From the NCBI GenBank assembly GCA_043819035.1, contig JBDRFD010000009.1, forward strand, positions 1-52,977: DNA of 52,977 nucleotides, read 5' to 3'. Below are positions 13,273 through 45,382 of the stretch, one piece after another (within the stretch, counting starts at the first letter, position 1; each line of letters opens with the position of its first letter). Source of the DNA: Patescibacteria group bacterium (lineage in GTDB: Bacteria > Patescibacteriota > Gracilibacteria > Peribacterales > Peribacteraceae). Below the pieces are notes generated by a model that had not been told where the DNA came from, made no database searches, and was given only the letters and a program-made list of their open reading frames with translations. The translations under genes and the position numbers were made by a program.

Positions 13273-13479
13273 TGAACAAATCTGCTACTCAGAGATTAAG
13301 GGAAATGTACCACTAAAAAGTACCCTTTCCACCTGAAAACAAAATTTGATCTTGCTCAAATATTATCCTCATGTTTTGAACACAAATTGTATGCATACAT
13401 TCTATCGGGGGAATGCGGGCAAAAAAGTTGATCAGAGAAGTCGCAAAGTTTGCTCTATATTGCGAAAAAACGCCAGAAA

Positions 13480-14286
13480 ATGTACAATAAGGGGGTGAAA
13501 TACAGACACTTTCTATTCTGCATAGTCTTCACCCTGGGTCTTCCACTCATTAGTTGTCATAAAAATGGTGAAACACCCGCCTCTTCCGTTTTGAAAGTAA
13601 GCGGAGCTAAGAGTTCTGTCTTTGCAACACTGCTCACGGCCAAACCAACTTCTGTTTCTCAGACAAGGCCGGGGGCATCTCTTGGAATGTATGTGAGTAT
13701 CTACCTGACACAAAGAATGATGATGGGAACCGCAAGCGCTCTGGAAGGTATTGATACGCAAATCCACCTTGCCCGTGCAGATTCGATCATTGAAGATGAA
13801 ACATTCACTCTCCTGCAGGAGTACGGAACCGTCCTTCAGGTAAATATAATCGATACGCTCAATCGATCCGTAGATCGTGAGAAGACGCTCGATAAGTACA
13901 CACTCTCACTGACACAAATGAATACTCGTATTGTACAAAAGCAGACCGAGCTTAAGCAGAAACTAGATGATATTGGGGAGAAGAGAAAGGTCGAACGGAA
14001 AGAAGTACGTGATATGGAGCGGATGATCAAGGATGCTCTTCGTGAAAAGGATTATGTCGCCGCAGGTCCTATACAGAAGGGACTTGCTTTGAAGGAAGCG
14101 AAGCTGGCCGGAACCGAATCCCTGGAGAAACAGACAGATAAAGTACTAGATATTGTCAAGGATCTGCTCGAAGTGGGAGAAGAGCGTCTACAGGCCATCA
14201 TTAAGAATCGTGAAATTTTGATCGCAGGACTGCAGGTGATTGATGTTCCCGGGATTGAGGAGCTGGGCATTGTGATTGAGGAATAA
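13480..14286 (+). CDS. coiled-coil lipoprotein, unknown function (adjacent to VirB4-like gene)
   Basis: ATG at 13480. Signal plus lipobox LPLISC. The C-terminal half is rich in heptad-like charged helices. Confidence 0.5.
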   Translation: MYNKGVKYRHFLFCIVFTLGLPLISCHKNGETPASSVLKVSGAKSSVFATLLTAKPTSVSQTRPGASLGMYVSIYLTQRMMMGTASALEGIDTQIHLARADSIIEDETFTLLQEYGTVLQVNIIDTLNRSVDREKTLDKYTLSLTQMNTRIVQKQTELKQKLDDIGEKRKVERKEVRDMERMIKDALREKDYVAAGPIQKGLALKEAKLAGTESLEKQTDKVLDIVKDLLEVGEERLQAIIKNREILIAGLQVIDVPGIEELGIVIEE

Positions 14287-14373: not shown

Positions 14374-14467
14374 TATTATTATTACTAAACAGTACTAACA
14401 ATAATGCAACTTCGCTCAATAGAAGAATTTGCACTTTTCCGCTATAATAAAAGGATTTATTGAACCT

Positions 14468-16780
14468 ATGGCTCAAAAAAGCGCCAATACTCTGCCGGCA
14501 CAACAGATTAGGCTCAGCCGTGTGCTCGTTGCCGCGATTGATGACCTTCTTGGGCTGCAACGCAGGGTTGAAAATACGCTGAAGGCGGCAAAACTTGCGA
14601 AGAGGCAAAAATTGACCACTGAGGATCAGGAGGAACTGAAACGTTACGAAGAAGGACTGCAGAAAACGCTCGATATTATTGCGCCTGCGGGAATGGAGAT
14701 TAAACCGGATGAATTCATTCTCAACGATCTGCATGGTCGAGTCCTCTATGCACTGAACTGGCCGCATTACATCTATCCAAACTGGCTCTCGGAGGAAATC
14801 AACTTCGATGCACACATGAATATCAGTCAGTTTATCTATCCTGCAGACAATAAGACGATAATGCGGATGCTCAGGAAAAAGGTGACGCAAATGCGTTCAT
14901 CTATTCACATGCTGGAACAACGAGGTATTGTTCGTGATCCATCGCTGGAAGCGGCACTGCAAGATGCGGAGGAGCTCAGAGACCTTCTCACACGTGGACG
15001 TGAAAAGCTCTTCCAAATCGGACTCTATGTGACGATTTACTCAGATGATCAGGAGAAGCTCAAGAAACTCCAGACAGATATTGAATCGCTTCTCGGCGGA
15101 AAGCTGGTCATTACCAAACCTGCTTTTATGCAAATGGAACATGGCTGGATTTCCACACTCCCATTCGGTATCGATGAACTGGAAGTAAACCGCAATATGA
15201 ATACATCGCCTGCAGCTGCATGCTTCCCTTTCTCCAGCTCCGACCTAACCGACGATCACGGTATCCTTTACGGTATTAACCGGCACAACGACAGTCTCGT
15301 GATCTTTGACCGCTTCGATCTGCCAAATGCAAATGCAACTGTGTTCGCTACATCCGGAGCAGGTAAATCCTTCGCGGTGAAGCTAGAAATCCTACGATCG
15401 TTAATGTTTGACACCGATATGTACGTAATAGACCCGGAAAATGAGTACCGCGAGCTGTGTGAAACGGTGGATGGAACATACATTCCGATTTCTTTGGAGA
15501 GTTCCAACCGTATTAATCCGTTCGACCTTCCTAAAGCAGTCCGAGGAGAGGAAGCATCCGTTGGTGAAACACTCCGCGCATCGGTCATCAACCTGCACGG
15601 ACTCTTTAAGCTGATGCTGGGAACACTTACTCCTTCTGAAGACGGTATTCTTGATAAGGCAATCTTAGACACGTATGCGCTGAAAGGTATTTCACTCACA
15701 ACAGATAATCATGCTGAAAAAGAAGTTCCGACTCTATCGGACCTTGTCGATGTTCTACTTACAACGGATGGAGGTGAAAACATGGCGAAGACACTTTCGA
15801 AGTACACAGAAGGAAGTTACGCAGGACTCTTCGATAAACCGACAAATGTGCAGATTGAAAACCAGATGGTTGTCTTCCAGATTCGTGATTTGGAAGATCA
15901 ACTCCGACCCATCGCGATGTATGTGGTTATCAACCTAATTTGGAACCGCATCAGAGCAGACTTCAAGAAGCGCATGCTCGTGATCGATGAAGCATGGAGT
16001 CTGATTCAGCATGAAGACTCTGCGCGATTCCTCTATGGCTTGATCAAACGTGCGCGTAAGTACTACCTTGGTGTCACGACTATTACTCAAGATGTGGAAG
16101 ACTTCGTGAATTCTCCGTATGGAAAACCGATTATCACAAATGCATCGCTCCAGATTCTTTTCAAGCAATCCCCTAGCGCGATCGATAATCTCCAGAAGAT
16201 CTTCTATCTTACGGAGGGTGAAAAGTATCTGTTACTGGGATCCGAAGTGGGTCAAGGGCTTTTCTTCGCCGGAAACAGGCACGTGGCAATTCAAATCATC
16301 GCGAGTCCGCAGGAGGCCCGGATCATAACCACAAATCCCGAAGATATCTTGGCAAAGAAGGAATCCAAGAGACTTGCTGCAATAACTGATGAAAAGAACA
16401 AGGGTGGATCTTCCGATCGCACGCCCGCTCCACCAAAGAAAGAAACCGCACAAAGTACAGGCGATGCAGAAGCAAAAACGGAAAATAAACATGAACCACA
16501 ACCGGAACAGAATGAGCAACATCAAGAATCTGAAACCAAAGAAGCATCAATCGAAGATAAAGTGCTCCCGCTTCAAGATTCACTCAAGGAACATGAGCCC
16601 ATCAAGGAACTTCCGGTGGAAGAAACGGAAAAGACACAGAAGAAAACTAAAAAAGAAGGTATCCGAAAGCTCAATAAAAATATCACGCTAAAACAAGCAA
16701 CTGCACCACCTCCCGGGAGGAAAAAGAAAGAAGAAGAACTATTGGAGGCTGAAGAAGAGAAAAGTGAAGACGAAGAGTAA
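14468..16780 (+). CDS. VirB4/TrbE-type type IV secretion ATPase (Gram-positive conjugation-like architecture) with long Lys/Glu-rich tail
   Basis: IAPAG..I-type N-domain, FPF motif, Walker A FATSGAGKSF, Walker B MLVIDEAWSL. The last ~140 aa are low-complexity K/E/Q-rich. Confidence 0.8.
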   Translation: MAQKSANTLPAQQIRLSRVLVAAIDDLLGLQRRVENTLKAAKLAKRQKLTTEDQEELKRYEEGLQKTLDIIAPAGMEIKPDEFILNDLHGRVLYALNWPHYIYPNWLSEEINFDAHMNISQFIYPADNKTIMRMLRKKVTQMRSSIHMLEQRGIVRDPSLEAALQDAEELRDLLTRGREKLFQIGLYVTIYSDDQEKLKKLQTDIESLLGGKLVITKPAFMQMEHGWISTLPFGIDELEVNRNMNTSPAAACFPFSSSDLTDDHGILYGINRHNDSLVIFDRFDLPNANATVFATSGAGKSFAVKLEILRSLMFDTDMYVIDPENEYRELCETVDGTYIPISLESSNRINPFDLPKAVRGEEASVGETLRASVINLHGLFKLMLGTLTPSEDGILDKAILDTYALKGISLTTDNHAEKEVPTLSDLVDVLLTTDGGENMAKTLSKYTEGSYAGLFDKPTNVQIENQMVVFQIRDLEDQLRPIAMYVVINLIWNRIRADFKKRMLVIDEAWSLIQHEDSARFLYGLIKRARKYYLGVTTITQDVEDFVNSPYGKPIITNASLQILFKQSPSAIDNLQKIFYLTEGEKYLLLGSEVGQGLFFAGNRHVAIQIIASPQEARIITTNPEDILAKKESKRLAAITDEKNKGGSSDRTPAPPKKETAQSTGDAEAKTENKHEPQPEQNEQHQESETKEASIEDKVLPLQDSLKEHEPIKELPVEETEKTQKKTKKEGIRKLNKNITLKQATAPPPGRKKKEEELLEAEEEKSEDEE

Positions 16781-19654: not shown

Positions 19655-21211
19655 CTACCCTAGCGGCTCAAACAATATCTCCGGCTCTCCAACCTTCTTC
19701 CAGCCTTTCTCACTCCCCCACTCCGTCTTGCCCTCAATTGTCTCAGGAACTTTGAGTCCAAGCTGTGTGAGTATCTTTTTTGACGTACCCGGAGTAAACG
19801 GCAAAAGCATCAGAGCAATGTGTCGTAACGCCTCCACAAGTTGCGTAAGAATATTCACCTTTTCCTTTCCCTCAAGCCCCCACGGCTTGCGGTCGTCTAT
19901 CAATTGATTGCACCGAACTACTACTTCCATCGCTCCCTGAAGCGCATTTTCCAGAGCAAACTCATTCATTTTTTCTTTGTACATCTCCCAAGTTTTAGAA
20001 ACTTCAAGAGGATCACTCCCGACATTTCCAAGGTCTCCACCTTCCTTCTGTAACAACACAAGAACTCTGTTTAATAGATTCCCCAAATCATTCCTAAGCT
20101 TGGAATCATACAATTTCTCAATCCGATCCCACGAGAAATCTCCATCACGACCGACCGGAACTTCATGACTCAAATAAAATCGAAGTGGATCTGGGTTATC
20201 GCCAAACTTTTTTAAAACTTCCTTAGGATCAACAACGTTTCCTGTGGTTTTACTCATCTTCTCACCCTCACTAGTCAGAAACCCATGGATCAAAAGCTTG
20301 TCTGGCGTGCGAACACCGGAATGTTTAAGCATTGCAGGCCAAATTAGCGCATGGAACCGTGCGATGTCCTTTCCAATCACATGTGTAACTTCTGCATCAT
20401 CCCACCATTCGACTCCCAGGCGGCTTGCGCCGCCTGCTCGCTCATGGCAGGCCACCTCGCTTATTCCACTCTTACCAAAATAATCGAGCCCAGAGATATA
20501 GTTCGTAAGCGCATCACACCAAACATACATCGTATGCTCACTGTCCCCAGGAACGGGAATGCCCCACGCAAGACTTGTTTTGGGGCGCGAGAAAGAAACA
20601 TCCTCCAACCCCTGATCGATCAAAGATAGTGTCTCATTTTCGCGAAATTGCGGAACAATGCGGTACTCCTCTCCATCCAAATCTTTGGTCAAAAGCTTCT
20701 TTAGGTTTTCTCCATCTTTACTGAGTGAAAAAAAATAGTTTTCCTCCGTGACCTCCTCCGGTTCTTTCTTATGATTGACACACTTCCCGTCTTCCAAATC
20801 TTTTTTGGTCATAAACCGCTCACATCCGGAACAATAGAGACCCGTGTAACTTTGTTTCTTAAGCTTCCCGGCTTTATCCAGCTTTTTCCAAAGCTCAATT
20901 ACCGTAGGCCAGTGATCCTTCTGATCGGACGTGCGGATGAATTTGTCATCAGAGATATTAAGACGCATATAAAGATCTTGATATAGCGGAACATTCCGAT
21001 CTACAAGTTGCTGAGGAGTGAGACCCTCTGCTTCCGCCGTCCGCTGCACCTTTACTCCATGTTCATCCGTTCCAATCTGGAATCGGACATCATCTCCTCG
21101 CAAGCGAAACCAGCGCGCTACTACATCTGCGAGCACTTTTTCCAATACATGCCCCATGTGCGGAGCGGCATTGGGGTAATCGATCGCTGTGGTTACGTAC
21201 TGGCGGGACAC
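19655..21211 (-). CDS. metG: methionine--tRNA ligase
   Basis: HIGH-type PNAAPHMGHV, a CSGC..(x)..C.NH zinc knuckle, and KMSKTTGNVV. 518 aa with no C-terminal dimerisation/tRNA-binding appendage. Confidence 0.9.
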   Translation of the reverse strand: MSRQYVTTAIDYPNAAPHMGHVLEKVLADVVARWFRLRGDDVRFQIGTDEHGVKVQRTAEAEGLTPQQLVDRNVPLYQDLYMRLNISDDKFIRTSDQKDHWPTVIELWKKLDKAGKLKKQSYTGLYCSGCERFMTKKDLEDGKCVNHKKEPEEVTEENYFFSLSKDGENLKKLLTKDLDGEEYRIVPQFRENETLSLIDQGLEDVSFSRPKTSLAWGIPVPGDSEHTMYVWCDALTNYISGLDYFGKSGISEVACHERAGGASRLGVEWWDDAEVTHVIGKDIARFHALIWPAMLKHSGVRTPDKLLIHGFLTSEGEKMSKTTGNVVDPKEVLKKFGDNPDPLRFYLSHEVPVGRDGDFSWDRIEKLYDSKLRNDLGNLLNRVLVLLQKEGGDLGNVGSDPLEVSKTWEMYKEKMNEFALENALQGAMEVVVRCNQLIDDRKPWGLEGKEKVNILTQLVEALRHIALMLLPFTPGTSKKILTQLGLKVPETIEGKTEWGSEKGWKKVGEPEILFEPLG

Positions 21212-21390
21212 TGTTTATAGAATACGTACAGATTAACCAAAAGTCACCTGATTAGAGCACGAAGCTTAAGATACCCCTTATGCCAAATTGCATAATGCAT
21301 GATATACTCCTTCACCAAAATAATTTCGATTTATGGAGATTCTATAGCTAAGCAAGCGTAATTCTGCACAGGATAAATAGGATTAAATCT

Positions 21391-21692
21391 GGATAAGGAG
21401 AAAATTTGGTGGAGAAATGTATAGTCCAGTTGGCTATTAACTGGGAATGGCAAACGCACCCGAACGAGGAGCCAAACTTTGGTACTTTAATTATGCGAGC
21501 AGATGGCGAGCGAGTCCTGAGTAAGCGAAGGACTCGACTCGTCTCTGCGAGCCAATCCAAGCAGCTTGTGTGGCGCGACGAGTGAGTTGCGTTTGCCTTG
21601 ATTTTTTTCTTTGTTTCTTTCTTTTTTTATCAAGAAAAAAAGAAAGAATAAGCAAGACTAAATGTTTTCTCCGGCAAATTTTCTCCTGATCC
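21391..21692. ncRNA. candidate structured RNA or MITE bounded by ~30-nt inverted repeats
   Basis: GGATAAGGAGAAAATTTGGTGGAGAAA (21391-) pairs with TTTCTCCGGCAAATTTTCTCCTGATCC (-21692). An inner helix pairs GGCAAACGCA (21449-21458) with TGCGTTTGCC (21588-21597), followed by a T-run. Internal hairpins carry GCGAAG-type loops. It sits in a 740-bp ORF-poor gap. Confidence 0.3.
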
Positions 21693-21952
21693 TTAAATCT
21701 TATATTTAAGTCAATCTTGTTAATTCGGGTTATGAATATTTATGGTAGTTTAGCTATATTGATCAAACAAAACTACTTCTAATGGCTACGGATTACAAGA
21801 TTGCATTATAAAGAACTAAAGAAGGTTTCGGAATTATTAACTAAAAGCAGTATACAAACTTATATCTGGCTCTGTCTTCGAATTATGCCAATGCAGTCCC
21901 GCTTGATTCGCCAAGCACACCATGACAATTTGGATTGTTTTTCAGGGCTTAC

Positions 21953-22297
21953 TTATCCGATACCACCCACAAATGCGCCAATAAACGTGATAATCGCTTC
22001 CGCAGCAATAGCCAGAACGAGCCCGACGAGTGCTGCAATAATGATCTTCTTGGCATCTTCTTTGCCCTGATCGTTCCCTCCGGATGCAATAAGTTTGATA
22101 GCTCCATAAACGATTGCAATCACCGCAGCTCCGGCTATCACAATGGCAAAGAAGTTTCCGATGCGGGCCGCAAGTACCACTGCAAAAGCGCTTCCCGCCG
22201 AACAGTCCGGATGAAGCTTTTCGCAATACACATCAAAAGCATTTGCATGCGCTTTTTCGATTATCAGGCCGACAAGAGCAGAGAAAGCAATCATCAT
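21953..22297 (-). CDS. VirB2/TrbC-like (T4SS pilin-like) small membrane protein
   Basis: Signal peptide (..EKAHA), a Cys pair, then two TM helices separated by a short charged loop (ASGGNDQGKEDAKK). There is a 4-nt overlap with the upstream gene. Confidence 0.5.
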   Translation of the reverse strand: MMIAFSALVGLIIEKAHANAFDVYCEKLHPDCSAGSAFAVVLAARIGNFFAIVIAGAAVIAIVYGAIKLIASGGNDQGKEDAKKIIIAALVGLVLAIAAEAIITFIGAFVGGIG

Positions 22298-22872
22298 AAA
22301 GGAAGATTCATAACAGAAACCACCAGCGCCTGAGCGACATTAACAACAATCGCGCCAATCACCGCCCAGATGATAATGCCACGGGCTTTGGTGAATTCGT
22401 CACTGCTGCCGCGGGCAAAAGCCATGCGAAAACCGGACGCAACCATCATAAGCGCAAAAACCGCGTTGAAGAGGACCACCATCGCATTCACTGCATATCC
22501 CATAAGGTGGAAGACGGGATCACTGCTTCCCATCAAACCACCGAATTGCGCACCAACAAAAGCCGCAATGCTTTGCGCGAGGAGTGTGATACCCAATCCC
22601 ACAAGCGCATAAACAATGGACATCTTCCCCTTTTGTATCTGGCCTTCTTCTCCCAGGCTCGTAAGCATTAGCGCACCGCCAACAACCACGAAAACAACAG
22701 ACAATCCTGCGGCAACGGAAACCAGTAAGTTCGCAACGGGGCCGACTGCGATTGCAAGAACATTAGCAGGTCCGCACCCGCCGACATACGCGCACGGATT
22801 AGCCATCGCAGAAGCGGAGAGAGGAAAAACACCAACCGTGAAACCGATCTGGAGCGGGATAAGTTTTTTCAT
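22294..22872 (-). CDS. tandemly duplicated VirB2/TrbC-like pilin-type membrane protein
   Basis: Signal peptide and a Cys pair (CAYVGGC). Two successive TM-loop-TM units (..SLGEEGQIQKGKM.. and ..ARGSSDEFTKARG..). ATGA overlaps at both ends. Confidence 0.5.
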   Translation of the reverse strand: MKKLIPLQIGFTVGVFPLSASAMANPCAYVGGCGPANVLAIAVGPVANLLVSVAAGLSVVFVVVGGALMLTSLGEEGQIQKGKMSIVYALVGLGITLLAQSIAAFVGAQFGGLMGSSDPVFHLMGYAVNAMVVLFNAVFALMMVASGFRMAFARGSSDEFTKARGIIIWAVIGAIVVNVAQALVVSVMNLPL

Positions 22873-23345
22873 ACAAAGAAACTTGCATTGAGGAAGTTAA
22901 GTATCACACCAACAAAAACCAGTGCAATCAGCCCGATAATCGCCCACTTGATGTGCTCGATCCATTTGCTTCGTCCGCTCTGGTCTCCTCCAAAAACAAT
23001 AATCATGCCGCCGCTCACCAGTACCCACAGCGTTACAAGACCTACTGCAACAAGAACAAGCCAATTCCACGCTCTTTGTACATATACTAAAAATGGCAAG
23101 ACGCCCCCTACAGCTACAGGAACATTGGCATCACCTGCAATCGGCTCGATGAGTGGAACAGCATTCTGTTTTTGTTCGACATGATGTCTATTAAAATATA
23201 TACATCCTTCAATTTCACATTGTTCTTTTGATACTCCTTCTGGACAAATTCCATCAGGATGAGCACAAGCAAAAGCCATTTCAGAACTTGTGAAGCTAAC
23301 GAGTATCCCCAGCAATACGCCGGTGATGATTAGACGCAAAGACAT
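22869..23345 (-). CDS. VirB2/TrbC-like pilin-type membrane protein with Cys-rich ectodomain
   Basis: ATG at 23345 (MSLRLIITGVLLGILV signal). Six-Cys segment CAHPDGICPEGVSKEQCEIEGC. The C-terminal TM-loop-TM reads VSGGMIIVFGGDQSGRSKWIEHIKWAIIGL. Confidence 0.5.
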   Translation of the reverse strand: MSLRLIITGVLLGILVSFTSSEMAFACAHPDGICPEGVSKEQCEIEGCIYFNRHHVEQKQNAVPLIEPIAGDANVPVAVGGVLPFLVYVQRAWNWLVLVAVGLVTLWVLVSGGMIIVFGGDQSGRSKWIEHIKWAIIGLIALVFVGVILNFLNASFFV

Positions 23346-23566
23346 CAAAGTATTATACCTTAAATTTGGCTTTATTTCGAGCTGAAAATGGGCATCTATA
23401 AGGCAAGAGAATGACAAAGAATCTTGCATCGAGGTTCAATTCTACGTAGCATTCTCGGGCTCCTTCACACACGGACAGCGCTTCCACCTTCGTCCCGTAT
23501 GCGCGGGACTACGGTTGACAGGTTCTCTGCGGGAGATGGATGCGATATACCGTTCATTTCAATCAT

Positions 23567-23643
23567 GCGGATGTAGCTCAGTTGGCTAGAGCGTCGCCTT
23601 GCCATGGCGAAGGTCGCGGGTTCGACCCCCGTCATCCGCTCCA
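23567..23643 (+). tRNA. tRNA-Gly (GCC), CCA encoded
   Basis: Cloverleaf traced by hand: acceptor GCGGATG/CATCCGC, anticodon arm TCGCC-TTGCCAT-GGCGA, T arm GCGGG-TTCGACC-CCCGT, discriminator U. Confidence 0.85.
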
Positions 23644-23735
23644 ACCTGCGCAGCAGGTTGCCGACCGAAGCTCGCCCGAAGGCGAGCGCAGGTTGGCTCT
23701 TCAACGAAGACCTGCTGCTACGGTTGTCAAGCCAT

Positions 23736-23809
23736 GCGGGATTAGTACAGTGGTAGTACGCGAGCTTCCCAAGCTTGTAACGCGGGTTCGATTCCCGTAT
23801 CCCGCTCCA
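23736..23809 (+). tRNA. tRNA-Gly (CCC), CCA encoded
   Basis: Acceptor GCGGGAT/ATCCCGC, anticodon arm CGAGC-TTCCCAA-GCTTG, T arm GCGGG-TTCGATT-CCCGT, discriminator U. Confidence 0.85.
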
Positions 23810-23936
23810 GCCTTCGCCCCTGGAGGGAGTGTTACAAGAAACAAGTTCGTAGAAGTTTTTGCATACACAGAGACGGGGCTACGGCTGGCGGGCCAACCAA
23901 TTTACTGTGATATTTACGAAGCGAAGGCTGTCCGCC
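23803..23936 (+). repeat. 133-134-bp direct repeat, copy 1 (begins in the tRNA-Gly(CCC) 3' end)
   Basis: Nearly identical to 24309-24441, with two mismatches seen. Contains GCTACGGCTGGCGGGCCAACC and GCGAAGG hairpin motifs. Confidence 0.85.
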
Positions 23937-24049
23937 GTAGCCCGATACTGTTCATGCTCAGCAATCGGGTAACTCAATTCGCCAATTGCTTATAAAAGGG
24001 CGCAGGCGGACTTAACAACCATCAACAAAACCATATACAATAACTTGCT

Positions 24050-24295
24050 ATGCCTCATTTTGTATATTTACTACGCAATCCACACGGCAGACAATACGTC
24101 GGCCAGACTACTGATCTAAATGGCAGATTGCGTGAACATAATGAAGGATCTGTAGTAGCCACTAAGGGAGGCAGGCCGTGGTCTATAGAATGGTTCTGTG
24201 GCTTTCGCATGAAGAAAACCGCTCTGCGCTTTGAAAAATATCTCAAATCAGGTTCGGGTCGCAGTTTTAGAGATAAGCATTTGCTTTCCGAATAA
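24050..24295 (+). CDS. small GIY-YIG nuclease-superfamily protein
   Basis: FVYLLRN..GRQYVGQTTDL..RL.EHN matches the GIY-(x10)-YVG core. 81 aa. Flanked by the 133-bp direct repeats. Confidence 0.7.
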   Translation: MPHFVYLLRNPHGRQYVGQTTDLNGRLREHNEGSVVATKGGRPWSIEWFCGFRMKKTALRFEKYLKSGSGRSFRDKHLLSE

Positions 24296-24308
24296 GCTCC
24301 ACTATCTC

Positions 24309-24441
24309 GCTCCAGCCTTCGCCCCTGGAGGGAGTGCTACAAGAAACAAGTTCGTAGAAGTTTTTGCATACACTGAGACGGGGCTACGGCTGGCGGGCCA
24401 ACCAATTTACTGTGATATTTACGAAGCGAAGGCTGTCCGCC
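24309..24441 (+). repeat. 133-bp direct repeat, copy 2
   Basis: See 23803-23936. It is preceded by TTCCGAATAAGCTCCACTATCTCGCTCCAGCC, which recurs at 24879-24910. Confidence 0.85.
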
Positions 24442-24522
24442 GAAGCCTTGGCGGAGGCGGACACTTCACTCTCATGAGGTCGCTTCGCTTCGGCAGGCCA
24501 TTCGGTCAAAGTTCATCCCATT

Positions 24523-24774
24523 TCAGACAGATATCTTCTCAAGTTTCTGTTGATGTTTCACTTGCATCGCAATTGTGGCTTCCAGATCTTCTTGTAATGC
24601 TTGCCTGTGTTGCCTTGCTTCTTCAAATCCATCTTCCGCCTGTTGCGAGAGTTGCTTCAAATTCACTTCCACTCTTTCCATTCGCATACCCAGACCGGTT
24701 ATTTGTTGCTGAAGCTCATGCTTCATGCCCTGCATGTGCTCCAAAAGGACTTTGTTGGTGATCTCATCTGCCAT
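24523..24774 (-). CDS. small coiled-coil protein (83 aa), unknown function
   Basis: Uninterrupted ORF with heptad-like Q/E/L-rich sequence. It lies between tRNA-end repeat copies. Confidence 0.4.
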   Translation of the reverse strand: MADEITNKVLLEHMQGMKHELQQQITGLGMRMERVEVNLKQLSQQAEDGFEEARQHRQALQEDLEATIAMQVKHQQKLEKISV

Positions 24775-25134
24775 AAGGGGGCGTCATGCTACATGACATT
24801 CGGATTATTTCAATGAGAAATTTGCTCATTTTCATTTACCCGATCTATCTATACACCTAACGAGAGTGTTCGAACCAGTTCCGAATAAGCTCCACTATCC
24901 CGCTCCAGCCTACGCGAAGCGTAGGCTGCCAACCGAAGCGCGAAGCGCGTAGGTTGGCTCAACTCAAACTAGCTCGCTTCGCTACGGCTGGCAGGCCAAC
25001 TTTAATCTACGCAGCAAATTTCCACCCGCAGGCGAGCGCAGGTTGGCCTTTCAACGATGAACAATGAACTTCTAACACTTAAATTAAAAGAGTAACCACT
25101 TCATTGCTTGATTTGTTAATTGTTAACTGTTACC

Positions 25135-25965
25135 ATGAAATGGGGATTGGTTCTCTCCGGCGGTTCCGCGCTTGGCATGGCGAATGCCGGGGTTCTTGAA
25201 CGACTGGAAGAAGAACATCTGAAACCGGATTACATTGCGGGCTCCAGTATGGGCGCAATTGTTGGAGCAATCTATGCGCTTGGCAATCCGCCTGCAGTCT
25301 TCCATGATCTACTTAAAGAGTTGAAGATTTCTAGGCTTGCTTCATTAAGTGAGAAACCACTTGAGCACGGACTTCATGGTGGAATACTTCGCCAAAACAT
25401 TAAAGAACATATGGAACCACTCATAGGAGACGCAAAGATATCTGACTGCAGTATCCCCTTCATTTGTATTGCATGCAGAGTCAAAGAGCCTATCCGCTGG
25501 GAACGCATTGTGCAGAAAGGATTTTCTGATCACGTTACATCGATTGTGGAGAAACATGTTTTTCCTCCAGAAACAAAGATCTTGGATGCCATCATGGCCT
25601 CAAGCTCTCTCCCTGTCATTTTCTCTCCCTATGAAATAAACGGCGATACATTCGTGGACCTGTGCAACTTCGGCGCCATACCCGCGCGCACGATGCACGA
25701 AATATTCCACCCGGACATCGTCATCGCAACAGACACCACACCCTCCTATCCCCTCCTCCGGAAGTACGGCCCTCCGGGTGTGCGCCGGTTCATTGAAGAG
25801 GCAGCCAATAGCAGGGATGAAAGCAGAGCTGCCTGCGACCTCATCATTGAACCGAAGTTCCCTAAAGGCGCACTGCGGTTTGATAAGGGGGAAGAATTTG
25901 TGGAAGCCGGGCGTGAGGCTGTGAAGGATAATTTGCCAGAATTAAGAAGGCTTCTTGCTGTATAA
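25135..25965 (+). CDS. patatin-like phospholipase
   Basis: GLVLSGGSALG (oxyanion Gly-rich motif), GSSMG (GxSxG nucleophile), and a downstream Asp-containing FVDLCNFGAIP. Confidence 0.75.
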   Translation: MKWGLVLSGGSALGMANAGVLERLEEEHLKPDYIAGSSMGAIVGAIYALGNPPAVFHDLLKELKISRLASLSEKPLEHGLHGGILRQNIKEHMEPLIGDAKISDCSIPFICIACRVKEPIRWERIVQKGFSDHVTSIVEKHVFPPETKILDAIMASSSLPVIFSPYEINGDTFVDLCNFGAIPARTMHEIFHPDIVIATDTTPSYPLLRKYGPPGVRRFIEEAANSRDESRAACDLIIEPKFPKGALRFDKGEEFVEAGREAVKDNLPELRRLLAV

Positions 25966-34886: not shown

Positions 34887-35552
34887 ATGATCGAAAATCC
34901 ACTCTCCACTGTGTTTGGTTCTGTTGGCGTAGTCTACGGACTCATTATGCCGGTCGTTCTGATTTTACTTTTTGCATTGTTCCTGATTGCAAGTTCGCTC
35001 AGTCCCGGCGCAAAGGCGCGCGGTACTGCGCAAGCAATGTATTGCACCGTCATGATGGCGATAGGTGTGCTCTTAATGACGATCGCAGCAATCCCAACAG
35101 TCACAAGTGTGCTCGCCGGTGAATCGTACGCAAGCGAGACATACTTGGGGCTCCTGATAGTCTTCGCCACCGGAGGATGCCTCTTCCTTTGGCATGATCA
35201 CTGGATGCGCACGCTGGATCCTGCTTCACGCTTGGTCCCCTCTCTCATCTTCCTATTCACGATCAAAACCATAGGAACACTCACAACGCTCCTTGCTGGT
35301 CTCTCCATCATTCTTACTTTTACTCTTGGTGGCGCTGAATATGGATGGTGGATCATGCCACTGACGCTCTTCCTCTATGGTGCGGTTCTCTTCATCAGCA
35401 CAGGAACAGTAAAGTCTCCTGCTGCAAAAAAGTTTAATTGCGCCCCTCTGTGTAAAACCTGCTTCAAGCCAAAACTTCCTAAGGTTATCACGGCATCTTC
35501 ACCAAGGAAGACCGCAACTAAGAAGAAAAAGGCACGAAAGAAGAATAAATAA
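34887..35552 (+). CDS. polytopic membrane protein (about 6 TM) with Lys-rich tail, unknown function
   Basis: 221-aa ORF with repeated hydrophobic helices. The C-terminus reads CAPLCKTC...KKKKARKKNK. It lies between rplK and rplA. Confidence 0.55.
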   Translation: MIENPLSTVFGSVGVVYGLIMPVVLILLFALFLIASSLSPGAKARGTAQAMYCTVMMAIGVLLMTIAAIPTVTSVLAGESYASETYLGLLIVFATGGCLFLWHDHWMRTLDPASRLVPSLIFLFTIKTIGTLTTLLAGLSIILTFTLGGAEYGWWIMPLTLFLYGAVLFISTGTVKSPAAKKFNCAPLCKTCFKPKLPKVITASSPRKTATKKKKARKKNK

Positions 35553-37779: not shown

Positions 37780-38178
37780 ATGCTTCATGGTCGTTCAGAT
37801 TATTTAAGCGCTCTGAGTACACCGTTAATTCTGTGGCTGCTGACGATTCCCGTTTTTGTTAGTGCGCAAGCTTCTACGTTAATTCCTTCATCAGGGACAC
37901 TTGGAACCTGCAATTTTCGTACAGGAACAATTCATGCCGATTGCGTACCAGTATACATCGGTTATTTGATTGAAATACTCTTCATGCTCATCGGCGCATT
38001 CTTTTTTATCATGATCCTCTTATCGGGATATCAAATCGCTGTAGGAAGTCTGGCCGGCGGTGAAGGATTGTCATCGGGACTTCAGAGGTTAAAATGGGCT
38101 ATACTTGGGTTCATGATCAGCGCGTTTTCTTTCTTCATTATAGCTTTCTTTATTTCCGCTCTCGGTTTCGGTACTTAA
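37780..38178 (+). CDS. VirB2/TrbC-like pilin-type membrane protein (fourth paralog)
   Basis: Signal peptide (..VFVSAQA), a Cys pair (C..x..C), and TM-loop-TM (..SLAGGEGLSSGLQRLKW..). Confidence 0.5.
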   Translation: MLHGRSDYLSALSTPLILWLLTIPVFVSAQASTLIPSSGTLGTCNFRTGTIHADCVPVYIGYLIEILFMLIGAFFFIMILLSGYQIAVGSLAGGEGLSSGLQRLKWAILGFMISAFSFFIIAFFISALGFGT

Positions 38179-43935: not shown

Positions 43936-44562
43936 ATGCCTATCGAACCTGTAAAAATTCCACAGAATGTCCAGATCGAGGACCGGCTAATCGGGCCGAT
44001 CACTCTCAGACAGGTTATTATCTGTCTCATTGGCGGAGGTATGAGTTTTGTAATCTGGAATATGATGAAGTCAGTCGGAATGGTGACTATTATACACTTT
44101 GCCTTTTCATGGATTCCATTTGTTATCGCAGCGGCATTTGCATTTATTAAATTCCAAAACTTATCTCTTCTACGGATCATTCTTCTGATGATAGAAAAAG
44201 GCCAAAAACCTTCAAAGCGAACATTCGGACCCCGTGAAGGAATTGCGATTAATGTTCGCACGTATTTCCACACCGAAAAACAGAAGCAGAAGTATTCCAT
44301 TGATCAAACCAGAGTTACAGAGGATAAATTCCAACACTTGAGTTCTGTGTTAGATAAAGAATCCGCTCAAGCTCAGGAATCACATACTGAAACCGATAAA
44401 AGCGAACTCCATGATGAAACGGGAAAGAGCACACCGGTTGATCCAAAGCGAGTGTCGGTGGAACCTTCCGCAAAGTCACAGCCAAACATTGATGGGATGA
44501 GTCCTTCTTCTATGCAATCAAACACTACTGTAACCAAGGAATCTTCACCTTCTGTTCCCTAA
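43936..44562 (+). CDS. PrgI-like (VirB3-type) T4SS membrane protein with disordered tail
   Basis: N-terminal VKIPQNVQIEDRLIGPITLRQVIICLIGG followed by two TM helices, as in PrgI-family proteins. The C-terminal ~90 aa are polar and low-complexity. Confidence 0.55.
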   Translation: MPIEPVKIPQNVQIEDRLIGPITLRQVIICLIGGGMSFVIWNMMKSVGMVTIIHFAFSWIPFVIAAAFAFIKFQNLSLLRIILLMIEKGQKPSKRTFGPREGIAINVRTYFHTEKQKQKYSIDQTRVTEDKFQHLSSVLDKESAQAQESHTETDKSELHDETGKSTPVDPKRVSVEPSAKSQPNIDGMSPSSMQSNTTVTKESSPSVP

Positions 44563-44563
44563 T

Positions 44564-45382
44564 ATGCCAAATGACCCTTTGCCACAGGCAGAAGAAGAAA
44601 TGACCGCTTCCACTTACAAAGAAGAGGAATTAGACGATAAATTCGAAGAGGAAGAAGAACCGGCCAAGAAGAAAACGTTCATCGAAAAAATAAAATGTAC
44701 GGTACGTCAGCGGAAAAGGAACGAAAAAGCAACTACACAGCGCTATCTGCCAATCGCGGAAATCCGCAATGATACGGTGGTTCTGAAAAACGGTGGCTTG
44801 CGTGCGGTTCTGTCGGTTGAACCTCTTAATTTCAACCTCAAGAGCGAAACCGAACAGGAAGGAATCATCGCACGCTACCAAAACTTCCTCAACACGCTCA
44901 CTTTCCCCATTCAGATTGTGGTGGCATCCACACGGGTAAACATCGATCCGTACATCAATAAGATTCGCATGCGCGCGGGTTCACAGAAGAATGAACTCTT
45001 GCGGCAGCAATCGTTGCTGTACGCGACATTTGTGGAGAAACTCGTAGAAGTGGCAGATATCATGCAGAAGGATTTTTACGTCGTTGTGCCTCAGGATGAC
45101 CAGCCCCCCAAAAGAAACTCCATATTACAATTCATGAGATGGTTTAAAACGGAAGACACAGCTGCCAAAATCAGCCAGCGCAATCAACGCTTCCACCAGC
45201 GAAGTGTGCTCCTGCGAGACCGCGTTAACCTGGTGCAATCAAGCCTTCATAATGTTGGGATTCAATCTCGTCGCTTGAACACCCAGGAGCTCATTGAAAC
45301 GTACTATCAGCTATATAATCCTCGTACAAGTCAGGAGCAGAAATTACCGAGCAACCTCAATACAGAAGAATTGGTGTTATAA
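44564..45382 (+). CDS. T4SS-associated protein resembling the N-terminal domain of VirB4/TrsE-type ATPases (no ATPase domain)
   Basis: YLPIAEIRNDTVVLKNGGLRAVLSVEPLNFNLKSETEQEGIIARYQNFLNTLTFPIQIVV pattern. It starts 1 nt after the PrgI-like stop. No Walker motifs. Confidence 0.5.
   Translation: MPNDPLPQAEEEMTASTYKEEELDDKFEEEEEPAKKKTFIEKIKCTVRQRKRNEKATTQRYLPIAEIRNDTVVLKNGGLRAVLSVEPLNFNLKSETEQEGIIARYQNFLNTLTFPIQIVVASTRVNIDPYINKIRMRAGSQKNELLRQQSLLYATFVEKLVEVADIMQKDFYVVVPQDDQPPKRNSILQFMRWFKTEDTAAKISQRNQRFHQRSVLLRDRVNLVQSSLHNVGIQSRRLNTQELIETYYQLYNPRTSQEQKLPSNLNTEELVL

What the first reader, a model, noticed from the sequence alone, without database searches (positions are those of the whole stretch)
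21953..23345. Operon of three translationally coupled VirB2/TrbC-like pilin paralogs
Three consecutive minus-strand genes overlap by 4 nt (ATGA) at 22294-22297 and 22869-22872. Each encodes a signal peptide, a Cys-containing ectodomain, and a TM / short charged loop / TM unit, which is the hallmark topology of T4SS pilins. The middle protein carries the TM-loop-TM unit twice. The third carries a six-Cys module (CAHPDGICPEGVSKEQCEIEGC). A fourth paralog sits at 37780-38178. No assembly genes are adjacent: the operon is flanked by a 740-bp structured non-coding gap and a tRNA cluster. Several diverged pilins with no contiguous machinery suggest a surface filament or adhesion system rather than a classical conjugation locus.
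Basis: partly seen in the sequence, partly recalled or inferred. Interest (0 to 1): 0.7.

Follow-up and report, generated by a model that had tools for sequence, protein, structure and literature searches.

The report
Patescibacterial type IV secretion pilin operon
Three overlapping genes in a Peribacteria (candidate phyla radiation) chromosome encode small membrane-hairpin proteins of the type IV secretion pilin family; arrays like this are already described in these bacteria, so it is a clean, conserved but not new example, and its secretion ATPase lies only four genes away.

Summary
The three minus-strand genes and their ATGA overlaps are real. Each protein has an AXA-type signal peptide, a Cys-containing ectodomain and a TM/short charged loop/TM hairpin. 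The middle protein has the hairpin twice. All three pass Pfam's cutoff for PF18895 (T4SS_pilin); reversed-sequence controls do not. The ORF at 37780-38178 fails that cutoff but is recovered by a lineage-specific profile.

The "six-Cys" module has four Cys and is not conserved in orthologs. Assembly genes are nearby: a VirB4 ATPase lies four genes from the operon (14429-16780), and PrgI/VirB3 plus TrsD lie at 43936-45382.

The window is a Candidatus Peribacteria chromosome. The gene order pilC-pilB-pilA-MetRS and the tight gene junctions recur in every related contig that covers the region. Orthologs are 35-67% identical, against 18-36% between paralogs.

VirB2-like pilin arrays in Patescibacteria are published (Wang 2023; Quinonero-Coronel 2025), so this is a new member of a known kind.

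Some details may be undescribed. The fused double pilin is widespread. Concatenated "poly-pilins" reach eight units. One relative has a pilC-pilB fusion, which argues for a heteromeric assembly rather than interchangeable variants.

The parts
22869..23345 (-). pilC: first gene of the operon, 158 aa. It has a signal peptide (MSLRLIITGVLLGILVSFTSSEMAFA|C), a variable ectodomain with a 4-Cys insert, a conserved VPLIEP motif and one TM-loop-TM pilin unit. The open frame extends to 23429.
   Evidence: PF18895 30.1 bits, E 5e-7. The unit HMM gives E 6e-6. Orthologs are 148-167 aa and 35-55% identical, and their ectodomain Cys count varies 0/2/4. A promoter-like site ending 6 nt before ATG 23345 supports the short form.
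22294..22872 (-). pilB: a 192-aa 'double pilin'. It has a signal peptide (…SASAMA|N), a Cys pair (C27, C33) and two tandem TM-loop-TM units joined by a linker of about 8 residues.
   Evidence: PF18895 51.7 bits, E 9e-14, 2 stretches. AF2 predicts four long helices at pLDDT 63. The architecture is kept in all ten full-length homologs (41-91% identical), and the Cys pair is nearly invariant. 112 of the 148 best cluster representatives have 2 units.
21953..22297 (-). pilA: 114-aa single-unit pilin. It has a leader (MMIAFSALVGLIIEKAHA|N), a Cys pair (C25, C32) and a hairpin whose loop, GGNDQGKEDAKK, is highly conserved.
   Evidence: PF18895 33.7 bits, E 4e-8. AF2 pLDDT is 69.5 overall and 72-91 over the hairpin, with helices 21-28, 35-71 and 76-112. 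Orthologs are 42-96% identical, and the invariant residues cluster in the loop and TM2.
23352..23380 (-). Promoter-like site TCGAAA-17 nt-TATAAT directly upstream of pilC ATG 23345. It would give a near-leaderless transcript.
   Evidence: Consensus scan, 10 of 12 matches. The number of such sites in the region is not above the shuffle expectation, so this is suggestive only.
37780..38178 (+). par4: a distant fourth pilin-like paralog, 132 aa. It has a signal peptide (…VSAQA|S), a Cys pair (C44, C55) and one hairpin.
   Evidence: The unit HMM gives E 8e-6 against 1.1 for the next ORF. It aligns in register with the other units. It is below the Pfam cutoff at 13.1 bits. Its conservation in relatives could not be tested.
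14429..16780 (+). VirB4-like T4SS ATPase, 783 aa, of the monoderm (MPF-FATA, CD1110) type. It is four CDS from pilA.
   Evidence: NCBIfam conju_CD1110 scores 365 bits against a cutoff of 325. Pfam matches P-loop_TraG, AAA_10 and TraC_F_IV. PDB 4AG5, a VirB4, matches at E 4e-46. It is 82-84% identical in relatives.
13450..14286 (+). Conserved partner gene upstream of virB4. It is a probable lipoprotein (…LGLPLISC lipobox) with a charged, probably helical C-terminal half. Its role is unknown.
   Evidence: Sequence read. It lies next to VirB4 in every related locus that reaches that far (L001/L005, L003, L007, L009). It has no Pfam, NCBIfam or PDB match.
43936..44562 (+). PrgI/VirB3-like membrane protein.
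   Evidence: Pfam PrgI 37.2 bits against a cutoff of 27. Hydrophobic stretches span about residues 18-86.
44564..45382 (+). TrsD-like protein, 272 aa, homologous to the N-terminal part of VirB4.
   Evidence: NCBIfam TrsD 36.9 bits and VirB4 N-terminal hits, all below cutoffs. Pfam TraC_F_IV positions 4-183, E 1e-4.

Best explanation
The operon encodes three non-redundant VirB2-like pilin subunits (Pfam PF18895): pilC, the tandem-fused pilB, and pilA. They belong to the chromosomal, monoderm-type (MPF-FATA-derived) type IV secretion system of a Candidatus Peribacteria bacterium. The other parts of that system are dispersed in the same window: VirB4 with a lipoprotein partner, PrgI/VirB3 with TrsD, and a fourth pilin-like gene.

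Shown: family membership, topology elements, operon structure, conservation, and proximity to VirB4.

Inferred mechanism:
1. The proteins are inserted through Sec and cleaved after the A-x-A site.
2. They sit in the membrane as hairpins, with both termini outside and the conserved Gly/Lys/Arg loop inside.
3. Overlapping stop/start codons give roughly equimolar synthesis.
4. The VirB4 ATPase extracts the subunits and assembles them into a short heteromeric pilus or conduit. The conserved loops line the lumen, and the variable Cys-containing N-terminal parts (above all that of pilC) face outward.
5. The structure serves contact with, or exchange with, a host cell rather than conjugation.
For: Family membership
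- PF18895 hits are above the gathering score for all three proteins. Reversed-sequence controls are negative.
- The pilB profile finds 21,590 cluster representatives at E<=1e-3. Of 101 relatives tested, 99 hit PF18895 and 20 also hit PF04956 TrbC/VirB2, best E 6.9e-26.

Topology
- AF2 models show long helical hairpins.
- Lys/Arg residues are concentrated in the inter-helix loops, and Cys pairs follow the leader.

T4SS context
- VirB4 of the CD1110 type scores above its NCBIfam cutoff and lies four CDS away. PrgI and TrsD are in the window.

Conservation
- The order pilC-pilB-pilA-MetRS occurs in every related Peribacteria contig that covers the region (L001, L003, L004, L006, L007; L008 ends before MetRS). 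L009 and L012 are partial copies. Each gene's best match is its positional ortholog.
- Orthologs are 35-67% identical, against 18-36% between paralogous units.
- Junctions overlap or are at most 2 nt apart in relatives at 9 of 12 junctions by the first in-frame ATG. The three others depend on the start chosen, and the source's own gene call gives a 4-nt overlap for one of them.
- One relative has pilC and pilB fused in a single 362-aa ORF followed by pilA.

Literature
- 441 arrays of 2-11 VirB2-like pilin genes were found in Patescibacteria, and VirB3 and TrsD are typically not next to virB4 in the class Gracilibacteria (PMC12102498).
- The pilin array and T4SS are essential for epibiotic growth of Southlakia epibionticum, and no relaxase or coupling protein was recognisable there (PMC10633639; review PMC12857230).
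Against: - No direct sequence match of the window proteins to PF04956, to VirB2 in the PDB, or to an Agrobacterium VirB2 profile.
- Foldseek returns only generic helical hairpins, for example ATP synthase subunit c, and no pilin in the top 50. The models are of modest confidence.
- No pilus has been seen in any Patescibacterium, and the monoderm T4SSs from which this one derives lack pilins (PMC12102498).
- No VirB6, VirB8 or VirB1 homolog was identified in the window.
- Signal-peptide cleavage, topology and co-assembly are heuristic inferences, since SignalP, DeepTMHMM and AF-multimer were not available.
- The pilA leader lacks a positively charged n-region.
Confidence: 0.7

Rival explanations
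1. Variation array. The paralogs are interchangeable major pilins kept to vary the exposed surface or to match different host strains. This has been proposed for Bartonella and Anaplasma VirB2 paralogs and suggested for Patescibacteria.
For: - PMC12102498 proposes this reading for the arrays.
- The pilins evolve faster than their neighbours: pilC 35-55% and pilA 47-66% identical, against MetRS 68-77% and VirB4 82-84%.
- The pilC ectodomain is hypervariable, with lineage-specific Cys inserts.
Against: - Each paralog has a positional ortholog in every related contig that covers its position.
- Paralogs are far more diverged than orthologs, so the duplications predate the lineage and all copies were retained.
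- The three have distinct fixed architectures: single unit, double unit, and extended ectodomain.
- Translational coupling is conserved.
- A pilC-pilB fusion exists.
- No copy-number variation was seen among the relatives.
Confidence: 0.12
2. Membrane ring or channel. The hairpins oligomerise within the cytoplasmic membrane and cell wall as the translocation pore of a monoderm T4SS, perhaps substituting for the undetected VirB6. They would do this in the manner of c-ring hairpins rather than forming an extracellular filament.
For: - Covalently concatenated relatives carry 3-8 hairpin units (35 of the 148 best representatives, for example P0146 with 820 aa and 8 units). This recalls multiplied ATP-synthase c subunits.
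- ATP synthase subunit c is among the top Foldseek matches.
- VirB6 homologs are reported as absent in the class Gracilibacteria (PMC12102498), and none was found in the window.
- MPF-FATA systems have no pilus.
Against: - The Foldseek match is non-significant (E about 1) and generic.
- The variable, Cys-bearing extracytoplasmic N-termini suggest surface exposure.
- Twenty relatives match bona fide TrbC/VirB2, which forms pili.
- In a VirB2-type lattice both termini are external (my recollection of the F- and T-pilus structures), so short external linkers between units would also be compatible with a filament.
Confidence: 0.15
3. Stand-alone surface filament or adhesin, or generic small membrane proteins, working independently of any T4SS.
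For: - No T4SS gene is directly contiguous; the neighbours are MetRS and tRNA-Gly genes.
- There is no direct VirB2 match.
Against: - VirB4 is four CDS away in this window, and at the same relative position in all four related loci that extend that far (L001/L005, L003, L007, L009).
- PrgI and TrsD are in the window.
- PF18895 membership is specific.
- No alternative assembly machinery for such hairpins is known.
Confidence: 0.05

Closest known systems
Essential VirB2-like pilin array of the Southlakia epibionticum ML1 T4SS (SEML1_0006-0019; Wang et al. 2023, PMC10633639) and the pilin arrays catalogued across Patescibacteria (Quinonero-Coronel et al. 2025, PMC12102498)
   Same: - Tandem, sequence-divergent PF18895/VirB2-like pilin genes in a chromosomal, monoderm-type T4SS without a recognisable relaxase.
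- Array size (3, plus 1 elsewhere) is within the reported range of 2-11.
- Paralog identity of about 18-36% matches the reported mean of 25%.
   Different: - The lineage is Peribacteria, not Saccharimonadia.
- The array is not inside a compact T4SS cluster. It sits between MetRS and tRNA genes, four CDS from virB4, with PrgI and TrsD about 21 kb away.
- One member is a fused double pilin.
- I did not compare sequences directly with the Southlakia proteins.
TrbC/VirB2 pilins of diderm T4SSs (Pfam PF04956; A. tumefaciens VirB2, PDB 8EXH/8CUE; RP4 TrbC) and F-pilin TraA (PF05513)
   Same: - A cleaved leader followed by a two-helix hydrophobic hairpin with a short basic loop, in a small protein.
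- Dependence on a VirB4 ATPase is inferred.
- 20 of 101 relatives of pilB also score on PF04956.
   Different: - The window proteins do not score on PF04956 or on VirB2 in the PDB.
- The host is a monoderm-like CPR cell.
- There are several obligate paralogs and fused units instead of one major pilin.
- There is no evidence for cyclisation or for a VirB5 tip protein.
Mbov_0395 family pilin-like conjugal transfer protein of Mycoplasma ICEs (NCBIfam NF045849)
   Same: A small two-TM pilin-like protein belonging to a wall-less/monoderm VirB4 system. pilA, pilB and pilC give weak hits of 13.8-25.7 bits.
   Different: All hits are below the 40-bit cutoff. The Mycoplasma proteins belong to mobile conjugative elements, not to a chromosomal housekeeping neighbourhood.
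VirB2 paralog arrays of Bartonella and Anaplasma phagocytophilum
   Same: Several diverged VirB2 genes in tandem.
   Different: Those arrays are thought to serve antigenic variation or host range. Here the fixed order, the distinct architectures and a gene fusion point to co-assembling subunits.

Membership tests
Pfam PF18895 T4SS_pilin | Profile score at or above the gathering cutoff (26.6 bits) | tested here: met
   pilA 33.7, pilB 51.7 (2 units) and pilC 30.1 bits. Reversed sequences give no hit at E<=10. par4 scores only 13.1 bits, so the feature is not met for that ORF.
Pfam PF18895 T4SS_pilin | Leader peptide followed by a two-helix hydrophobic hairpin with a short polar loop | tested here: met
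   Hydropathy and A-x-A sites, unit alignment, AF2 helices. Cleavage itself was not tested.
Patescibacteria T4SS pilin array (sensu PMC12102498) | Two or more pilin genes in tandem in a genome with a Patescibacteria-clade VirB4, located near virB4 (within 20 CDS) | tested here: met
   Three tandem genes. VirB4 (CD1110-type, 365 bits against a cutoff of 325) is four CDS away. The phylogenetic placement of VirB4 within the Patescibacteria clade was not computed.
Patescibacteria T4SS pilin array (sensu PMC12102498) | Required for the T4SS-dependent, host-associated lifestyle | not testable with these tools
   Known only for Southlakia, by Tn-seq (PMC10633639). Peribacteria are uncultivated.
Pfam PF04956 TrbC/VirB2 | Profile score at or above the gathering cutoff (27.9 bits) | tested here: not met
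   No PF04956 hit at E<=1 for any of the four proteins. A. tumefaciens VirB2 scores 64.9 bits as a positive control.
Pfam PF04956 TrbC/VirB2 | Detectable homology to bona fide VirB2 (profile-profile or transitive) | tested here: inconclusive
   hhalign against a 45-sequence Agrobacterium-type VirB2 alignment gives probability 0.2, but that profile is very narrow (Neff 1.5). The PDB sequence searches are negative. Transitive link: 20 of 101 relatives of pilB hit PF04956, best E 6.9e-26.
Pfam PF04956 TrbC/VirB2 | Fold match to solved VirB2/TraA pilin structures | tested here: inconclusive
   Foldseek against the PDB finds no match at E<=0.001, and the top 50 are generic helical hairpins. The models have pLDDT 63-70, and the hairpin is a low-information fold.
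Conjugative (DNA-transfer) T4SS | Relaxase and VirD4-type coupling protein associated with the locus | tested here: not met
   None of the ORFs of the window that I scanned with Pfam matched either family. The rest of the genome was not available.

The most novel reading that the evidence does not exclude
The Peribacteria pilins may be obligate partners of one heteromeric T4SS filament or conduit, not variants of one major pilin. In that structure a covalently fused pilin dimer (pilB) would be a fixed building block. More broadly, Patescibacteria may build this structure from concatenated VirB2-like hairpins. Fusions of 2 to 8 units exist, as does a pilC-pilB fusion. That mode of T4SS pilus or channel construction has no described counterpart in diderm or other monoderm systems, and I did not find it mentioned in the papers I read.
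Probability: 0.3. Interest if true: 0.6.

Novelty: new member of a known kind. Interest (0 to 1): 0.33.

Why it matters
T4SS pilin arrays are among the few gene sets shown to be essential for the epibiotic life of Patescibacteria, and what they build is unknown. This locus adds no new kind of system.

It does offer a compact, strongly conserved three-gene version in an uncultivated lineage. The fixed gene order, the translational coupling, a fused double pilin and a Rosetta-stone fusion all argue that the paralogs co-assemble. That is a testable refinement of the published 'antigenic or host-range variation' idea.

The concatenated poly-pilins seen in relatives constrain which subunit contacts are possible in the final structure.

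Tried and rejected
- **Exact-sequence look-up of pilB:** not on record.
- **Foldseek of both AF2 models against the PDB:** only non-significant generic helical bundles and hairpins. Not usable for or against a pilin fold.
- **Sequence and profile searches of the PDB with pilA and the pilB alignment:** nothing relevant.
- **hhalign of my pilin-unit alignment against 45 Agrobacterium-type VirB2 sequences:** no similarity. That VirB2 set is too narrow for the test to be fair.
- **Rfam on 21000-25200:** only the two tRNAs. Weak sub-threshold hits at the 21590-21670 hairpin were rejected.
- **BLASTN of the 741-bp gap against all fetched loci and the rest of the window:** no copy.
- **Conservation of par4:** I scanned metagenome contigs with the neighbouring Dus protein. 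This returned only two distant loci (48% and 38% identity) with no pilin-like ORF. The closer relatives' loci end at Dus, so par4 conservation remains untested.
- **The 186-aa form of pilC starting at 23429:** considered and rejected. Orthologs are 148-167 aa, the extra 28 residues precede the signal peptide, and a promoter-like site lies inside them.
- **Composition artefact as the cause of the Pfam hits:** considered and rejected by the reversed-sequence control.
- **The lipoprotein next to VirB4:** no PDB, Pfam or NCBIfam match.
Full report
**Observation.** ORF listing and direct reading of the minus strand confirm three consecutive genes:
- pilA, 21953-22297, 114 aa.
- pilB, 22294-22872, 192 aa.
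The open frame runs on to 23429.

Both junctions are ATGA overlaps. A hydropathy and Cys scan and a five-way alignment of the hairpin units show the same plan in each protein. A hydrophobic leader ends in A-x-A, Cys residues follow just after it, and then come two long hydrophobic helices separated by a short Gly-rich loop with Lys/Arg.

pilB has two such units. The evidence is Pfam (2 stretches), AF2 helices 38-71, 76-110, 119-152 and 157-188, and 2 HMM domains in the pilB ortholog of every related locus.

Two details in the finding are wrong. The module CAHPDGICPEGVSKEQCEIEGC has four Cys, not six. It is also not a conserved feature: the two closest pilC orthologs have no ectodomain Cys, one has two and one has four.

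The flanks are as described. The 741-bp gap at 21212-21952 folds better than shuffles (z = -5.8). Two tRNA-Gly genes lie at 23567-23809.

**Family.** All three proteins exceed the gathering score of Pfam PF18895 T4SS_pilin (33.7, 51.7 and 30.1 bits against 26.6). Their reversed sequences keep composition and the hydropathy pattern, yet give no PF18895 hit even at E<=10. The matches are therefore not a hydrophobicity artefact.

The ORF at 37780-38178 is below the Pfam cutoff (13.1 bits). However, a profile built only from pilA and pilB orthologs retrieves pilC (E 6e-6) and this ORF (E 8e-6) from 472 six-frame segments of the window, and the next best scores E 1.1. I accept it as a distant fourth paralog. 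Whether it is conserved could not be tested.

**Relationship to VirB2/TrbC.** The direct tests fail:
- No PF04956 hit. Genuine VirB2 scores 64.9 bits as a positive control.
- No PDB sequence match.
- No hhalign signal against an admittedly narrow Agrobacterium VirB2 profile.
- Foldseek returns only generic hairpins.

There is a transitive link. The pilB profile finds 21,590 cluster representatives at E<=1e-3. Of 101 of the best, 99 hit PF18895 and 20 also hit PF04956, the best at E 6.9e-26. So 'VirB2/TrbC-like' is justified at superfamily level, but the window proteins are not members of PF04956.

**Context.** The window is a chromosome of a Candidatus Peribacteria (Peregrinibacteriota, CPR/Patescibacteria) bacterium. 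Related loci carry those names, and the neighbours are housekeeping genes: ArgRS, MetRS, RuvB, L11/L1, Dus and ClpB.

T4SS machinery is present but dispersed:
- A VirB4 ATPase at 14429-16780. It scores 365 bits on NCBIfam CD1110-type (cutoff 325) and matches PDB 4AG5 at E 4e-46. A conserved putative lipoprotein lies just upstream.
- Only four CDS separate VirB4 from pilA: a DHH-family gene, the formyltransferase gene, a small PurA-like gene and MetRS.
- PrgI/VirB3 at 43936-44562, followed by a TrsD-like gene at 44564-45382.

This matches Quinonero-Coronel et al. 2025 (PMC12102498). They report that in the class Gracilibacteria TrsD and VirB3 are usually not next to virB4 and that VirB6 is undetectable. 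(My recollection is that GTDB places Peribacterales in that class.) None of the ORFs of the window that I scanned with Pfam matched a relaxase or coupling-protein family.

**Conservation.** The order pilC-pilB-pilA is found in six related contigs that cover all three genes (L001, L003, L004, L006, L007, L008). Five of them continue into MetRS; L008 ends first. L009 is a partial copy: the end of pilB, then pilA and MetRS. L012 has the first two genes fused. In every case each gene's best match is its positional ortholog.

| Gene | Identity to orthologs |
|---|---|
| pilA | 47-66% |
| pilB | 52-67% |
| pilC | 35-55% |
| MetRS | 68-77% |
| VirB4 | 82-84% |

The paralogous units share only 18-36% identity. 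Gene junctions overlap or are at most 2 nt apart at 9 of 12 junctions in relatives. The three others depend on the start chosen, and the source's own gene call gives a 4-nt overlap for one of them. In one relative pilC and pilB form a single 362-aa ORF followed by pilA.

Within each ortholog set, the invariant residues cluster in the inter-helix loops and the adjacent helix ends, and the N-terminal ectodomains vary.

**Mechanism.**
- *Shown:* family membership, architecture, operon organisation, conservation, and closeness to VirB4.
- *Inferred from what is established for VirB2/TraA pilins and from the Southlakia Tn-seq (PMC10633639; review PMC12857230):* Sec insertion and leader cleavage; membrane hairpins with both termini outside and basic loops inside; roughly equimolar synthesis through termination-reinitiation at the overlaps; and VirB4-driven extraction and assembly into a short pilus or conduit used for host contact or exchange rather than conjugation.

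Ancient paralogs with retained orthologs, fixed order and distinct architectures, together with a gene fusion, favour a heteromeric assembly over the 'interchangeable variants' idea raised in PMC12102498.

A membrane-ring or channel role remains possible. It is suggested by relatives that concatenate 3-8 hairpins in one polypeptide, by the missing VirB6, and by the monoderm ancestry of the system.

**Novelty.** VirB2-like pilin arrays in Patescibacteria are published. PMC12102498 reports 441 arrays of 2-11 genes in 383 assemblies, found with PF18895. PMC10633639 and PMC12857230 describe the essential six-gene array of Southlakia. This locus is a new member of that kind.

Some details are not mentioned in the papers I read:
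- The fused double pilin is a widespread subfamily: 112 of the 148 best representatives have two units, and 90 representatives match at E<=1e-30.
- Poly-pilins reach eight units.
- Positional orthology and a Rosetta-stone fusion support co-assembly.

These are modest refinements, hence the low-to-moderate interest score.

Noticed in passing
window 21212-21952: The pilA-MetRS spacer is 741 bp here but only about 60-180 bp in six related genomes, so roughly 600 bp has been inserted. It contains nested inverted repeats: 27-nt arms at 21391-21417 and 21666-21692 (89% complementary), and 26-nt arms at 21343-21368 and 21733-21758. It also has an A/T-rich hairpin near 21590-21670 and folds with z = -5.8. 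There is no Rfam family above threshold and no other copy in the window or the fetched loci. It is possibly a foldback or MITE-like insertion.
   Followed up: partly
window 23781-24915: The 3' end of tRNA-Gly(CCC) plus downstream sequence is repeated three times, at 23781, 24286 and 24879. One pair is a 150-nt direct repeat, 23793-23942 and 24298-24447, 96% identical. The repeats bracket an 81-aa GIY-YIG nuclease gene at 24050-24295 (Pfam E 1e-15). This looks like two tandem ~500-600-bp insertions at a tRNA 3' end. The adjacent patatin gene and the 336-aa ORF are absent from L001.
   Followed up: partly
proteins P0146, P0147, P0168, P0288 (relatives found): These are single polypeptides of 583-820 aa with 7-8 tandem T4SS_pilin hairpin units. 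P0146 has 8 PF18895 stretches and also hits TrbC/VirB2 at 51 bits. 35 of the 148 best representatives have 3-8 units. Whether they are genuine ORFs or assembly or gene-calling artefacts was not checked.
   Followed up: partly
L012 206-1659: In this 1.7-kb metagenome scaffold the pilC and pilB orthologs form one 362-aa ORF, with a remnant of the pilB leader as linker. It is followed by the pilA ortholog with a 1-nt overlap.
   Followed up: partly
window 13450-14286: A conserved 26x-278-aa protein lies immediately upstream of virB4 in this window and in the four related loci that reach that far (L001/L005, L003, L007, L009). It has a lipobox (LPLISC) and a long, charged, probably helical C-terminal half. 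It has no match in Pfam, NCBIfam or the PDB. It is a candidate unrecognised T4SS component.
   Followed up: partly
window 14429-16780: VirB4 is 82-84% identical among these Peribacteria. That is clearly more conserved than the flanking aminoacyl-tRNA synthetases (62-77%), which points to unusually strong constraint on the T4SS ATPase.
   Followed up: no
window 34887-35552: A 221-aa polytopic membrane protein with no family match is wedged between rplK and rplA. A gene of 224 residues, with no Pfam family on record, occupies the same position in relative L001.
   Followed up: no
window 23352-23380 (minus strand): The -10-like TATAAT ends 6 nt before the pilC ATG and there is no Shine-Dalgarno sequence, which suggests a leaderless or near-leaderless first gene. 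No Shine-Dalgarno-like sequence is visible before pilB or pilA either.
   Followed up: no
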